Assembly (NCBI RefSeq): GCF_009914755.1
Contig: NC_060935.1
DNA length: 64,000 nucleotides
Reading direction: 5' to 3' (one strand)
DNA from: the human T2T-CHM13v2.0 reference genome, Homo sapiens
Shown here: positions 57,926 to 63,734 of the stretch, one piece after another
Position numbering within the stretch: the stretch's first letter is position 1
Layout of the letters: every line of letters starts with the position of its first letter
Made by a program: the position numbers and the translations under genes
The notes under the pieces: generated by a model
Told to the model about the DNA's origin: nothing
Seen by the model: only the letters and a program-made list of their open reading frames with translations
Databases searched by the model: none

Positions 57926-60510
57926 TAAAAAGAAATTTAACTAACTTAAACATAATGCAATATTTTAGACAGACAGTTCAGTCACATTCTGTAAATGTGC
58001 TTTTTCAACTGTGAAATGTGAAACAATTCAATAAGTAACAAAAGAATCTATTGATATACAACTTCTGTAATGAAGTAGATTTTCAGAAGGCAATTGTGCA
58101 TACAAAAAGATATAAAGAGAGGGAAATTTTCTTACAGAAAACTGTATGAATATATTATAATACTGCAATCTGTGAAAATTATATGTGTGGTTTTCAATTA
58201 TTTTTATTATTATCTCATAGATTGCAACCAGAGAATCTTAACATATATGTGACAATTTGGTGACTTTTAGAACAAGTGACAGGGAAGATTCATGACTCTC
58301 TATATATTTGTACATACAAGTAAATAGGTATAATACACATATACACATATATATAGATACAGATGCTTGTGTGTATAAGTGCATGTATACACACATTGAT
58401 GTGTTTTTCCTTCTTTCAATATGTTAGTGAATACTAAGTGTATGCGTGTGCATAACACATACAAAAATCTAACACAATTTTCTTTGTTTCATGAAGATAT
58501 CAGAAGGCAATACTTGAATATACCAAAATATTGCTGTTCATTTGTCTTTAATGATTATATTGATTAGATTTGTATTTATATTCTTAGATAATCATATATC
58601 ATTTCCTAAAAAATAAAAGCCAAAATACTAAATTTATTCACAAGAGCCTTCCAATATAAGAACATTGGAAACCTTATGTTTCTTTCCTGATATTATCTCT
58701 ATCATCTGATTATATCACAAAAAAAATGTTTAAAGTTAAGAGTATAAATGACTAGTTTCTGGCTCCAAATCACTCCCTAGTAAGCTGAACCACCTTGACC
58801 TTCATTATATATATTTACTGTATTTATTATGGTGTTAATCAACAGAGACTATGCCCTGTTTTTTTGTTTGTTTGTTTGTTTTGAAATCTTGTTAAACTTT
58901 GTAGCATCATTCAAAACTAGAGACTTAATAGATTCCAAATAGAGATTTGTGAAAGTTTTGGTTCTGTTTACTGTGTTATTTGCAGTAAATAGATATTTTA
59001 GATTGGCAAATATCAAGCAGAGAATAGTGCTATTTCTAATATTTTAAACTGAGGAAATGTCAAGGGGAAATGAAGATTTTTATTCAATGTATTCAGAGAA
59101 AAGAAGGAATTTACTTTTATTTAATATTGTCTAATAAGGAAATTGCCCTCTGATTTTAATGTTTGTTCCTAGACTAGGCTTGGCTATATTAAATTCTAGC
59201 TGACTAGCATATCACTGGGGTTAACTGTCCACCAATTAAGAGTATTAACAAGTCATATAAGTGTATATCCACATGTAATATACTAATATATAAGTATGTA
59301 TTAATATACTAGTATATAATTGTGTATTAGAGGCTACCGTCTGCTAAGGCCTCCAGATATTTATTAAAACAAAGGAAACAGTCCACAAACCTTGATTATC
59401 AGATACTTCCCTGAGGAAAACTTACTTCTAACATCACTGAGCAGTTAAAAGTAGTAAAGTAATGACCACGTATTTCTATTCAAAGCCCTTTTACTATGCC
59501 ATCCTGGAGAAAGTGTAACTCGTTAGGTAGCTTCAAATATTAACTCGCTGCCCAAAGAGCAGACTGGAAGTAACATACATGTATATATTACACTCCTTAT
59601 ACAAAAATGTTTTAAAACAAATTGGAGAAAGTGTAACAACCAATAACATCATTTTAAGTTACAGTTACTATTCTGCACATGAGTGTACAAGAAAGTATCA
59701 TGTAACTGAATCATTGGCTGTTGCAGCAAGAGGAATTGCACTTATATAAAGTAACAGAATAAATTATTTCTGCACAGTTTAAGGTCCTGATAAATTCCTG
59801 CTCAAAGTTTTTCATTTTTATGACTCTAACTCTGAGGAATTTCAGAAAAGGCACTCCAGACCGCTTCTGTAGGAATTTTTGGAGAGAACGCCTAAATTTC
59901 AGCTCCACATAAAGCTGTACACCCTCTGATATGACCCAAAATAAGTAAAACAATATACATACCTGATGAGCTCTTGTAAACAAAGAGATTAACATGTATT
60001 CATCGTGAGTTAAAGCTCCAATACATAAAATAGCCACTTCAAAGAAAAGTGAAATAAGAATCAGAAGATTAACGGGTAGCCGGGAATTAGGACAAGTTTT
60101 AGAAGAAAGAAACCACGATAACATTTCTTAGCTATTTGCCTTTGCCCATAGTCTCATATCAGTTTCAGCAATTGACGAGTGAGAAGGCAAGTTGTTCCAA
60201 CTCCTTCCTGAGGAGCATACATAAAATAAGTGTTTGCACTGCCTGTAGTTTTACAGTGTGATTCAGTTATCCTTACACAGTAATTTTAAGTAACATAATG
60301 TTAAACAATGTCTTCTGTATTTGAAAGATATAGAGATCTAAATTGCTGTCCACCCATGTGTCAGCATTCTGGTGCCCACAGTGACCAAACAACACTTGCA
60401 CTCCTTGAAGACTGTTGTGATATTTACCCTTTTCCACTTTGGCTTTGCCTTTTATTACAAAACTCAACAAATAAGGGTAAGAACAGTGACACTTGGCTTG
60501 TTAAAAAAGT

Positions 60511-60720
60511 GCTTTTTTTTTGGTCTCTGCTGCCTGTGTATAAATAATAAGTACACCCAATGTAATTTATTGCCTATGAGTAGTTCTGTCTCACCAGACT
60601 ATGACGTGGGTAACCAATGCACAGTTAACCTGCTTTACACTAATCATATTTATTTTAAAAATGTGATTAGTTCCAGAATCCTGAGTTTCTGCACAATGCA
60701 AAAACAACCGTAAAACAGTG
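60511..60720 (+). repeat. Left arm of a 210-bp inverted repeat
   Basis: Reverse complement of 62038-62247 with a single mismatch (60533 vs 62225). Confidence 0.97.
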
Positions 60721-60879
60721 TGATTATAAAATAGTTGATTTTGAAGATGAGGAATGGAATAAAGATACAGATGAAAGAAGAATGTCATGAGGTTGATAAC
60801 TACTGAAGGTGATGGATATTGTATTGACTGTGTATATATAAAATTTCTGGGAAAAAAGTTAAAAAAAAAGTATTGGCCC

Positions 60880-61060
60880 TAGAAGGAGGTAGAATGAATA
60901 CTACTTACTTGACTTGTCAGTGACTAGCTTGTGATCTTGGACACATTTCAATCTGTGTAACTCTCAATTTCTGTGTCTATGAAATGAAGATAATATTCCT
61001 TTATAAAGCACTGCTATAAAGACAAAATGGATAATGTATTTCACTATCTAAGCATAGTTA
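60880..61060 (+). mobile_element. MIR
   Basis: 'actagcttgtgatcttggaca...ctcaatttctgtgtctatgaaatgaagataat'. Confidence 0.6.
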
Positions 61061-61147
61061 AGAACCACCATTCTCCAATATTGTGTTACTGTATGACTTA
61101 TAAAAGGTTTCCTCTCTCAAGACACCCTCTTGCTGTCTGTGAGGAAT

Positions 61148-61180
61148 ACACACACACATATACACACACACACACACACA
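61148..61180. repeat. Interrupted (CA)n microsatellite
   Basis: acacacacacatatacacacacacacacacaca. Confidence 0.9.
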
Positions 61181-62037
61181 TGCAGTATATATATAATCAC
61201 TATATATCAAAGTCAGTACAATATCCATCACCTTCAATAGTTATCAGCCTCATGCCATTCCTGTTTCATCTGTGTCTTTATCCACTCTTCATCCTCAAAA
61301 TCAACTATTATATAATCACAATTGTAAACTAACAAGAGGAATATGGAGTTATTATCAGTAATTTATGCAGTAGTATGAATAAAGGTTTAAGATTATATTT
61401 AAATTATGCCTGTGACACTGAATGCAGAAACTGAAGACTAGGGAACATCAGCAACCTTGTTGATGTCGATTGTGCTTTGCTACCCATGTAGGATAGCATT
61501 TTTACCAAGAAGGCAGGGCTCTCTCAGTAAAAATCATATTTTGAAGATATTATATTCTCAGTAGTGCTCATGTGAACATTAATGTCACATTCATTTATAC
61601 ACCACGGTTATTTATTATTAACTCACATAATTGGATCTCCCACAGGGCTGCTGATTAATAAAATATCCATGGCCTCTGTAAAGACCAATTTTCTTAATAC
61701 AAGGACATGTTAATGGGCAAAATAATTTCAAGTGCCATTTTTTGGTACATGCAATGTCCAATGTTATTTTGAATGCGTCTGCACTTTTAGATCTTCATCT
61801 GTGATTAGCTATTTTCATCTTCAATAAGCCAAGTATTGAAGAATCGAGGTCTCAATTTGCCAGAATGCTTTGGTAAGCACAAAGTATATACTTAAATGCC
61901 AAGAATTATGTGCTAATAAGTTAACAAGCGTAATCTAGCTTATCAACAGCCTGAAAATCTAAATCTCAGTATTTGTGATTTGAAACAGAATGTACAATGC
62001 ATGGAATTTCAAGAGTTGCAGACTTCCTCTCATGATC

Positions 62038-62247
62038 CACTGTTTTACGGTTGTTTTTGCATTGTGCAGAAACTCAGGATTCTGGAACTAATCACATTTT
62101 TAAAATAAATATGATTAGTGTAAAGCAGGTTAACTGTGCATTGGTTACCCACGTCATAGTCTGGTGAGACAGAACTACTCATAGGCAATAAATTACATTG
62201 GGTGTACTTATTATTTATACACAGACAGCAGAGACCAAAAAAAAAGC
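62038..62247 (-). repeat. Right arm of the 210-bp inverted repeat
   Basis: Reverse complement of 60511-60720; overlaps the 3' end of the LTR at 62119-62626. Confidence 0.97.
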
Positions 62248-62626
62248 CTAGGGTCCACTGTGAACTGGTCCCTCAGGGCTCAAGAAAGCTGCCTGAGGCA
62301 GAAGTCTCAGCTGTGTGTAGCCCTATTGCACCAAAGCTGGAGGGACTCTGTAAAGCAGCTCAACCTGGTTATAAACCTTACAGGCCATGTGAATCAATGG
62401 GCTAAAGCTTCAAAGGACGTCCTGCTTCACGCCAGAGAGAAACAAAGCCTGCATTGATCAGAGCAGTTATTTTCTAACCTAAGATGTTATATCCTCTAGG
62501 AGGGATAGGGGGATGATCTGGGCTGTTTCTGACACTCTATCCCTAGCTCAGGATATTTCATTCTTAACACATTTTATAGTTATTCTTGAGAACTACTAGT
62601 GGGAAAGGGAAGTGCACTGTCCTGCA
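62119..62626 (-). mobile_element. MER54/MER73-like ERVL solo LTR
   Basis: Minus strand tgcagg...'tagttctcaagaataactataaaatgtg'...'gttctgtctcaccagact...ggtaaccaatgcacagttaacctgctttaca'; exact TSD attag at 62114-62118 and 62627-62631. Confidence 0.85.
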
Positions 62627-62810
62627 ATTAGTAATCCCATTGAAATATTGATAGTTACATAATATAGCACAGCACACACACATACCCATGCACAAGCATT
62701 TACTAGGACTTACTTGTGATGCATTTAAACTTCATAATAAACCTAGAATCTCATCTCTTTATTATGGATGAGGAAATGAAGTCTAACAAAGCATATAACT
62801 TATTTATAGT

Positions 62811-63175
62811 AGTGTTAGTTCATTTCCATGCTACCAATAAAGATATACCCAAGTCTGAGTAATTTATAAAGAAAAGAAGTTTAATGGACTCACAGTTCCA
62901 CATGGCTGGGAAGGCCTCACGATCATGGCAAAAGGTGAAGAAAAAGCAAAGGCACTTCTTACATGGTGGCAGGCAAGAGAGTGTATGCAGGGGAAGTGCC
63001 TTTTATAAAACTATCAGGTCTTGTGGGACTTATTCACTATCACAAGAACACCATGAGAAAAAAACCGCCCCTATTATTCATTTAACTCCTACTGGGTCCC
63101 TCCCAAGACACAGGAGGATTATGGGAGCTACAGTTCAAGATGAGATTTGGATGGGGACACAGCCAAACCATATCA
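62811..63175 (-). mobile_element. THE1B/C solo LTR inserted in a MIR
   Basis: 'tttaatggactcacagttccacatggctgggaaggcctcac...ggggacacagccaaaccatatca'; near-TSD atagt/atggt. Confidence 0.92.
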
Positions 63176-63692
63176 ATGGTCACATACCTAGTAAAGCTTA
63201 GAATCAAGAAAACAACTCAAGCATTTAAAAAATTAAATATTTTGTTTTATTGACTATTCTTGTTTTATCTTTTATTCTTGCACTAATTCAATTATCAAAC
63301 CATATAATACCAGTGCACTACTATTTCCGTTATAGCTGTTCTACTTCAGGTCAATATAATCTATGCCTTAACTATACACCTGATATTCTAAATGGCCATC
63401 CTCTTTCTTATTTCTCCCCCTCTAGACTGTTCTAAATATGGCCAAAGGATTCCTAAAGCATAGTTTGGGTGACGTCATTCTCGTCTTCAAAAAACTGTCT
63501 ATGTACTCATTGCCTACTCAATTGTTAGTGTTATGGGAGAATGTTAGAATTGAAGAATCTCCAACAATTCTTAGTCAAGAAATGGAATTTGTTACTAACA
63601 TTCCTGTAAAAGCACTGCCGTAGCATGACATAAAAAACTTGCAAAAAAATTTGTTCTGCAATCTATGACCACATACCAGCCAAACTACCCAT

Positions 63693-63734
63693 TGTGTGTG
63701 TGTGTGTGTGTTTGTGAGTGTGTGTGTGTATGTA
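63693..63734. repeat. Imperfect (TG)n microsatellite
   Basis: TG run with tt/ag interruptions. Confidence 0.9.

What the first reader, a model, noticed from the sequence alone, without database searches (positions are those of the whole stretch)
60511..62247. Near-perfect 210-bp inverted duplication around a 1317-bp spacer: probable inversion scar and re-invertible cassette
Seen: the arms are 209/210 identical. The right arm is continuous with an old, diverged LTR with both attag TSDs intact. The left arm holds only the last ~129 bp of that LTR plus 81 bp of its flank, so this is a copy of genomic DNA, not a second LTR insertion or transposon TIRs. The DNA before the left arm ends 'aaaaaagtg' and the inner arm end reads 'aaaacagtg', a microhomology expected if the ancestor read ...aaaaaagtg|gatcatgagagg... 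and the spacer was flipped by template switching or staggered breaks. Inference: a recent inversion with breakpoint duplication, or arms homogenised by gene conversion. The arms could mediate recurrent inversion of the spacer.
Basis: partly seen in the sequence, partly recalled or inferred. Interest (0 to 1): 0.8.

Follow-up and report, generated by a model that had tools for sequence, protein, structure and literature searches.

The report
Local inverted duplication beside older hairpin
A 210-base piece of ordinary human DNA was copied backwards and placed 1.3 kb from its source, an example of a common kind of small rearrangement, and whether the DNA in between was also flipped cannot be told from this one genome.

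Summary
Arms 60511-60720 and 62038-62247 match at 209 of 210 bases in inverted orientation, around a 1317-bp spacer. Both arm ends are sharp.

The right arm is the source. It holds the first 129 bp of a 508-bp solo LTR (62119-62626, TG..CA, ATTAG on both sides) plus 81 bp of single-copy flank. The left arm is a copy of genomic DNA, not a transposon end.

Spacer and left flank are single-copy in CHM13, and no other primate genome is available. Nothing here therefore shows whether the spacer was inverted.

I favour an inverted templated insertion made by one replication template switch or fold-back repair (about 0.65). In 1000 Genomes data this class (under 1 kb, within 5 kb of the source) made up 54% of validated "inversion" calls. 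Inversion with breakpoint duplication stays possible (about 0.2).

New detail: the left arm's inner end abuts, to the base, an older locus-specific inverted repeat (60719-60840 / 61201-61320, 108 of 120 matches). That repeat folds as a strong hairpin and is a plausible stalling site.

Re-inversion through the arms is possible but untested. This is an ordinary member of a known class.

The parts
60503..60511 (+). End of the unique left flank, AAAAAAGTG. It matches 8 of 9 bases with the inner end of the left arm. The novel junction J1 lies at 60510|60511.
   Evidence: The flank 59900-60515 has no other copy in CHM13 at E<=10.
60511..60720 (+). Left arm, the derived inverted copy. 60511-60639 is the reverse complement of the first 129 bp of the LTR. 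60640-60644 is a copied CTAAT (ATTAG on the other strand). 60640-60720 is the 81-bp unique flank.
   Evidence: The outer end cuts the LTR at an internal A9 run, so J1 cannot be ancestral.
60719..60840 (+). Arm A of an older, locus-specific inverted repeat. Its outer edge coincides with the inner end of the left arm.
   Evidence: 89%, found only at this locus. (108 matches, 12 mismatches, 2 one-base indels, JC distance 0.107). (folds as a hairpin).
61146..61180 (.). (CA)n microsatellite inside the loop of the older inverted repeat.
   Evidence: In one search, 43 of 47 genome matches fall only in query positions 497-604, which is this tract.
61201..61320 (-). Arm A' of the older inverted repeat.
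61321..62037 (.). Single-copy part of the spacer between A' and the right arm.
   Evidence: only 2 matches in CHM13, the query itself and the 83-bp overlap with the left arm.
62038..62247 (+). Right arm, the source copy. It comprises 81 bp of unique flank (62038-62118, including ATTAG at 62114-62118) plus the first 129 bp of the LTR (62119-62247).
62119..62626 (.). Old solo LTR of 508 bp, TG..CA, flanked by ATTAG at 62114-62118 and 62627-62631. Dispersed copies are 66-84% identical.
   Evidence: 35 of 46 dispersed matches cross 62247|62248.

Best explanation
A single, evolutionarily recent error of replication or repair copied 210 nt of the + strand at 62247->62038. That stretch is 129 nt of an old solo LTR plus its 81-nt unique flank. 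The copy was written in reverse complement and placed 1.3 kb upstream, at the junction between the unique left flank and an older 120-bp hairpin-forming inverted repeat.

In four-point template-switch terms the order is 1-4-3-2, or 3-2-1-4 if the fork ran the other way. Synthesis stalled at the base of the old hairpin. The 3' end moved to the other template strand, or folded back on its own strand. It copied 210 nt, then returned to the point of departure using the AGTG / 8-of-9 microhomology. On this reading the spacer was never inverted, and the product is a local inverted duplication.

Shown:
- the anatomy of the structure
- which arm is the source
- the sharp arm edges
- the microhomology
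- the hairpin potential of the older repeat, and the coincidence of its edge with the junction

Inferred:
- that the spacer kept its orientation
- that stalling at the hairpin triggered the switch
- the date, roughly 2-5 Myr from 1 difference in 210 at recalled rates of 0.5-1e-9 per site per year (Poisson range about 0.06-27 Myr)
For: - The arms are 209/210 identical with abrupt ends and no diverged homology beyond them.
- The left arm is an LTR fragment plus single-copy flank. LTR family copies run continuously through the right arm's outer end in 35 of 46 dispersed matches. The right arm is therefore the template and J1 is a novel junction.
- At the single mismatch, the left arm carries the C seen in 13 of 15 informative LTR-copy alignments, which is 12 of 14 distinct loci because L004 and L019 overlap. 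Two carry T. Three of the 18 alignments did not cover the site. The arms therefore have separate mutational histories, which argues against an assembly duplicate.
- There is an 8-of-9 microhomology, with the last 4 bases exact, between the flank end and the donor end. Chance rates are 3e-4 and 6e-3.
- The insertion point is the outer base of an older inverted repeat. As single-stranded DNA that repeat folds at -111.8 kcal/mol, against -54.4 +/- 3.6 for 20 shuffles (z -16). In the fold of the whole unit, 207 of 210 left-arm positions pair with the right arm, and 112 of 122 positions of A pair with A'.
- Prior from the literature (passages read). [quoted passage not shown] Only 20% were simple inversions and 5% were complex. 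The authors attribute this to replication errors.
- Walker et al. (passages read) state that patterns 1-4-3-2 and 3-2-1-4 are the majority template-switch patterns and generate single inverted repeats. They also report raised ancestral secondary-structure stability at the switch point.
Against: - Nothing here tests the orientation of the spacer, so the preference rests mainly on a literature prior taken from polymorphic short-read calls.
- The copied tract (210 nt) and the jump (1.3-1.7 kb) exceed the tens to hundreds of nucleotides treated in the short-range template-switch papers.
- The first switch has at most 1-2 nt of microhomology (junction prints).
- The attempt to show that the old inverted repeat once extended across the flank|A junction was not significant. 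That extension would have proved the junction ancestral. Result: 138 of 2000 shuffles reached the score at 30 bp, and there was no signal at 60 or 120 bp.
- The hairpin-edge coincidence fits the inversion model about as well.
Confidence: 0.65

Rival explanations
1. Inversion with a one-sided breakpoint duplication. The ancestor read left flank | reverse complement of 60721-62037 | right arm. Either a 210-nt staggered break at the right breakpoint or one long template switch (four-point order 1-3-4-2, copying about 1.5 kb backwards) flipped the segment and left the arm at both ends.
For: - The duplicates flank the segment exactly, as the staggered-break and isochromatid models predict (passages read in PMC7584159).
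- The same CACT / 8-of-9 microhomology would then serve junction J3.
- The right arm's inner end would then lie at the base of the old hairpin, which is a plausible fragile point.
Against: - This architecture falls at most within the 5% "complex" class of validated 1000 Genomes inversion sites, against 54% for plain inverted duplications.
- There is no positive evidence for a reversed spacer. No repeat spans J2 or J3. Extension of the old repeat under this model shows no signal (959 of 2000 shuffles). Strand skew is flat.
Confidence: 0.2
2. An old inverted duplication whose arms were kept nearly identical by gene conversion, possibly with repeated flipping of the spacer by recombination between the arms.
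For: - The arms are 99.5% identical, while the adjacent older repeat at the same spot is 90% identical.
- Inverted repeats of at least 200 bp are treated as NAHR substrates.
Against: - Both arm ends are sharp, with no diverged homology outside them. Conversion tracts would have to coincide with the original duplication edges on both sides.
- 210 bp is shorter than any repeat (654 bp-24.2 kb) among the 24 genotyped NAHR inversions.
Confidence: 0.07
3. An assembly artefact in T2T-CHM13, with the second arm not present in the real genome.
For: None from the calls. It cannot be excluded without reads.
Against: - The arms differ at one base, and the copy carries the LTR-family-typical state. An artefactual duplicate would be expected to be identical.
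- From recalled knowledge, the whole 1.7-kb unit is far shorter than a HiFi read.
Confidence: 0.03

Closest known systems
"Inverted Dup" class of the 1000 Genomes phase 3 structural-variant map (Sudmant et al. 2015, PMC4617611; passages read)
   Same: A duplicated stretch under 1 kb (here 210 bp) is inserted in inverted orientation within 5 kb of its source (here 1317 bp). It is not linked to retrotransposition. The authors attribute the class to replication error.
   Different: Those events are polymorphic and were verified against an allele lacking the copy. Here only one haplotype is seen, so presence/absence and spacer orientation are unknown. I found no entry for this locus.
Four-point template-switch events, patterns 1-4-3-2 and 3-2-1-4 (Loytynoja and Goldman model, as described in Walker et al. 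2021, PMC7954356; passages read)
   Same: A reverse-complement copy of nearby sequence creates one perfect inverted repeat. There is microhomology at a switch point and raised secondary-structure potential at point 1.
   Different: That model is applied over tens to hundreds of nucleotides. Here the copied tract is 210 nt and the jump is 1.3-1.7 kb, closer to the FoSTeS/MMBIR scale (Hastings et al. 2009, PMC2621351; seen only as a search listing with the start of its abstract).
[quoted passage not shown]
   Same: Inverted duplicates lie exactly at the two ends of a segment, and the duplicate is a copy of ordinary flanking DNA.
   Different: That model requires the segment to be reversed relative to the ancestor, which is untested here. 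Here there is a duplication at one breakpoint only.
NAHR-mediated recurrent inversions flanked by inverted repeats (Giner-Delgado et al. 2019, PMC6748972; Porubsky et al. preprint 10.1101/2021.12.20.472354; passages read)
   Same: Highly identical inverted repeats bracket a unique segment. 210 bp meets the 200-bp criterion used by Porubsky et al.
   Different: The repeats in the 24 genotyped NAHR inversions are 654 bp to 24.2 kb. No second orientation is known for this locus.

Membership tests
Local inverted duplication (1000 Genomes 'Inverted Dup') | Duplicated stretch shorter than 1 kb | tested here: met
   210 bp.
Local inverted duplication (1000 Genomes 'Inverted Dup') | Copy lies in inverted orientation within 5 kb of the source | tested here: met
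   1317 bp lie between the arms. The source is identified as the right arm.
Local inverted duplication (1000 Genomes 'Inverted Dup') | Not a retrotransposition product; the copy is arbitrary genomic DNA | tested here: met
   The arm is a 129-bp LTR fragment plus an 81-bp single-copy flank. The spacer is single-copy.
Local inverted duplication (1000 Genomes 'Inverted Dup') | DNA between copy and source is collinear with the allele or ancestor that lacks the copy | not testable with these tools
   No other primate or human haplotype is available (one search states the genome has no relatives here). Indirect tests were uninformative.
Inversion with breakpoint duplication (staggered breaks) | Inverted duplicates sit exactly at both ends of the segment | tested here: met
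Inversion with breakpoint duplication (staggered breaks) | Segment is reversed relative to the ancestral arrangement | not testable with these tools
   No outgroup is available, and no repeat spans J2 or J3.
NAHR-invertible segment | [quoted passage not shown] | tested here: met
   210 bp at 99.5% identity, against the criterion. This is below the 654-bp minimum of the genotyped set.
NAHR-invertible segment | Both orientations observed among individuals or species | not testable with these tools
   Supplement look-ups found no entry at this locus. Several files were cut, unreadable or not held.
DNA transposon or MITE with terminal inverted repeats | Arms are the ends of a repeated element family | tested here: not met
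   The 81-bp inner part of the arm and the whole spacer occur only at this locus in CHM13.
DNA transposon or MITE with terminal inverted repeats | Target-site duplication outside the arms | tested here: not met
   AAAAAAGT lies before the left arm and CTAGGGTC after the right arm.
L1 twin-priming inversion (about 85% of inversions under 2 kbp in Porubsky et al.) | Inverted segment lies inside an L1 insertion | tested here: not met
   The spacer is single-copy apart from a (CA)n tract, and the arms are LTR plus unique DNA.
Solo LTR (source of part of the arm) | TG..CA ends, short direct target duplication, dispersed diverged copies | tested here: met
   62119-62626 with ATTAG on both sides. There are 46 dispersed matches at 66-84% identity. 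No family name could be assigned because no repeat library is available. That a 5-bp duplication points to class III (ERVL/MaLR) elements is recalled, not tested.

The most novel reading that the evidence does not exclude
Inverted repeats here grow by accretion. An old 120-bp hairpin-forming repeat stalled replication and seeded a second inverted duplication, about 20 times younger, exactly at the base of its stem. The resulting 210-bp near-perfect arms now flip the 1.3-kb spacer recurrently in human or ape populations. Because the locus lies in an intron of the +-strand gene LINC02699, the primary transcript would also carry a 210-bp double-stranded RNA stem with a single A.C mismatch.
Probability: 0.12. 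Interest if true: 0.5.

Novelty: new member of a known kind. Interest (0 to 1): 0.25.

Why it matters
The locus is a clean, fully sequence-resolved example of the commonest "inversion-like" small rearrangement in human genomes. Source, copy and both junctions are readable to the base.

Its one unusual feature is that the junction falls on the edge of an older inverted repeat at the same spot. That fits the idea that hairpin-forming DNA provokes further template switching. It is a single case with no functional annotation (an intron of a lncRNA, no RefSeq functional element), so it does not open a long-standing question.

If ape genomes show that the spacer is reversed, or human assemblies show both orientations, the locus would become a small example of an inversion made, or re-made, by very short repeats.

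Tried and rejected

2. Other primate or human haplotypes were not available. The window's genome has no relatives here.

3. Repeat continuity across junctions was not usable. The left flank (E<=10), the spacer and the inner arm are single-copy, so no interspersed repeat spans J1, J2 or J3 to reveal the ancestral order.

4. I tested for residual extension of the older repeat across either candidate ancestral junction. Under the insertion model, 138 of 2000 shuffles reached the score at 30 bp, 1721 of 2000 at 60 bp and 1599 of 2000 at 120 bp. Under the inversion model the counts were 959, 525 and 814 of 2000. The result is inconclusive.

5. Strand compositional skew was tried as an orientation marker. 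The window-wide TA skew is 0.003 and the GC skew is -0.011. The spacer lies at the 37th and 49th percentiles of 1317-bp windows. This gives no information.

6. Rfam found no family at gathering score in 59500-63500.

7. Literature search for this locus:
- "LINC02699" gave 1 paper, which is unrelated.
- Supplement searches found nothing at chr11 around 26.04 Mb (CHM13) or at my rough, unverified guess of the GRCh38/hg19 position. Giner-Delgado 2019: the only chr11 entry is near 0.1-0.3 Mb, and 6 of its 18 files were not searched.
- The inversion benchmark had no match for the GRCh38-guess number prefixes, the only ones searched there.
- The ape genomes paper holds only an unreadable PDF.
- HGSVC3: the file was cut when stored.
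- Sudmant 2015: one text file only.
- Schloissnig 2025: the only nearby row is a 56-bp deletion at chr11:26042553, outside the window, and the file was cut.
- Porubsky 2022 (Cell) and Ebert 2021 were not held under the ids I tried. The Porubsky preprint's supplements are closed.
- Absence from these look-ups is therefore weak evidence. I make no claim that the locus is not in print.

8. The transposon-end, second-LTR and L1 twin-priming readings were rejected (see Membership tests).

Full report
**What is there**

The window is T2T-CHM13 chr11:25,978,001-26,042,000, and the finding lies in an intron of the lncRNA gene LINC02699. Arms 60511-60720 and 62038-62247 are reverse complements of each other over 210 nt, with 1317 nt between them. 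A base-by-base comparison gives 209 of 210. The one difference is C at 60533 against A at 62225.

The match ends abruptly. None of the first 6 bases outside the arms agree, and none of the first 7 inside them. Local alignment of the next 300-650 bp on either side is no better than shuffled sequence (z 1.6, 2.3, 0.6).

Among 11 inverted pairs of at least 60 nt within 10 kb in the whole window, this is the only one above 90%. Nine are 72-84% and look like ordinary interspersed repeats. One, at 89%, lies inside this very spacer.

**What the arms are made of**

I searched the whole CHM13 assembly with the left arm. That gave the two arms plus 35 dispersed matches at 71-84% identity, all confined to arm positions 4-140. 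The last 81 bases occur nowhere else.

Searching with 62100-62660 gave 46 dispersed matches at 66-84%. Of these, 35 run uninterrupted across the right arm's outer end (62247|62248), and the other 11 cover only other parts of the element.

The element runs from TG at 62119 to CA at 62626 (508 bp), with ATTAG directly on both sides. It is an old solo LTR. I cannot name its family without a repeat library.

The right arm is therefore original DNA: 81 bp of unique flank followed by the first 129 bp of the LTR. The left arm is a reverse-complement copy that cuts the LTR at an internal A9 run. Transposon ends, a second LTR insertion and an L1 twin-priming product are all excluded.

**The arms have separate histories**

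At the one mismatch, the left arm has the C found in 13 of 15 informative alignments to other family copies. That is 12 of 14 distinct loci, since L004 and L019 overlap. Two have T, and 3 of the 18 alignments did not cover the site. The substitution therefore most likely happened in the source after the copy was made. This is what a real, slightly aged duplication predicts, and an assembly duplicate does not.

One difference in 210 corresponds to roughly 2-5 Myr at recalled rates of 0.5-1e-9 per site per year. The Poisson range is about 0.06-27 Myr, so the event may or may not be human-specific.

**An older inverted repeat at the same spot**

The segment 60719-60840 is the inverted match of 61201-61320. 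There are 108 matches, 12 mismatches and two one-base indels, giving a Jukes-Cantor distance of 0.107. A (CA)n tract lies in the 360-nt loop. Both copies occur only at this locus, so this too is a local inverted duplication, about 20 times more diverged than the 210-bp pair.

Its outer edge (60719) coincides with the inner end of the left arm (60720). As single-stranded DNA, the stretch 60700-61340 folds into one long hairpin at -111.8 kcal/mol, against -54.4 +/- 3.6 for shuffles (z -16). In a fold of the whole unit, the two stems nest: 207 of 210 positions pair between the 210-bp arms, and 112 of 122 between A and A'.

**Was the spacer inverted?**

Four junctions exist. J4 (62247|62248) is ancestral and J1 (60510|60511) is novel. 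Either J2 (60720|60721) or J3 (62037|62038) is the second novel junction.

- If J2 is novel, the event is an inverted templated insertion and the spacer never moved.
- If J3 is novel, the spacer plus arm were flipped and the arm was duplicated.

It matches at 8 of 9 with the last four exact (chance 3e-4 and 6e-3). It serves the return switch in both models, so it does not discriminate.

I looked for internal evidence and found none:
- The left flank, spacer and inner arm are single-copy, so no repeat spans a junction.
- A test for residual extension of the older repeat across either candidate ancestral junction was not significant. For the insertion model, 138 of 2000 shuffles reached the score at 30 bp, with nothing at 60 or 120 bp. 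For the inversion model the count was 959 of 2000.
- Strand skew is flat in this window.

**Which reading is more likely**

The choice rests on priors and mechanism. In the 1000 Genomes structural-variant map, 229 "inversion" sites were resolved with long reads or PCR. Only 20% were simple inversions. [quoted passage not shown] 14% were inversion plus deletion, 7% were multi-deletion and 5% were complex. The authors ascribe the complexity to replication errors (passages read). The present structure fits that majority class exactly. An inversion with a one-sided inverted duplication would fall at most in the 5% class.

In the four-point template-switch description, the insertion reading is pattern 1-4-3-2 (or 3-2-1-4). 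Those are the patterns reported as the majority, and they generate single inverted repeats. Ancestral secondary-structure stability is raised at the switch point (passages read). A fork stalled at the base of the old hairpin, a jump to the other template strand or a fold-back, 210 nt of synthesis, and a return guided by AGTG together account for every feature.

The tract and jump are longer than in those short-range studies, and the first switch has almost no microhomology. The inversion reading can explain the same features through staggered breaks or one long switch (passages read).

I give:
- inverted templated insertion: about 0.65
- inversion with breakpoint duplication: about 0.2
- an old repeat homogenised by conversion: about 0.07 (disfavoured by the sharp edges)
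- assembly artefact: about 0.03

**Re-inversion**

The arms could support recombination. 210 bp just meets the 200-bp criterion used to call inversions NAHR-consistent. The repeats of the 24 genotyped NAHR inversions range from 654 bp to 24.2 kb. I found no record of a second orientation, but my look-ups were partial (papers not held).

**Function**

Nothing suggests a function. There is no Rfam family, no RefSeq functional element and no exon in the interval. If the + strand is transcribed as part of LINC02699, the primary transcript would contain a 210-bp duplex with one A.C mismatch. That is an inference only.

**Verdict**

It belongs to a well-documented class. The inversion claim is open and is the less likely of the two readings. 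The one feature worth noting is the base-exact coincidence with an older hairpin-forming repeat.

Noticed in passing
window 60719-60840 and 61201-61320: There is an older, locus-specific inverted duplication: 108 of 120 aligned bases match, with 2 indels and a 360-nt loop holding a (CA)n tract. Its outer edge coincides with the inner end of the 210-bp left arm, and it folds as a strong DNA hairpin.
   Followed up: yes
window 61146-61180 and 63693-63731: There are two CA/TG dinucleotide microsatellites. One lies inside the loop of the older repeat and one lies 1.4 kb beyond the right arm. They account for the extra inverted 'pairs' I4-I8.
   Followed up: partly
window 62119-62626: This is a 508-bp solo LTR with TG..CA ends and an intact 5-bp ATTAG target duplication. 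Its dispersed copies are 66-84% identical. The family was not named for lack of a repeat library.
   Followed up: partly
CHM13 chr11:26042553 (553 bp beyond the window end): A supplementary table of Schloissnig et al. 2025 lists a multiallelic 56-bp deletion with FST 0.38 in the African superpopulation. It is unrelated to the finding.
   Followed up: no
window 60533 / 62225: If both arms are transcribed on the + strand, the single arm difference would give an A.C mismatch in an otherwise perfect 210-bp RNA duplex. From recalled knowledge, that context is favoured by ADAR editing.
   Followed up: no
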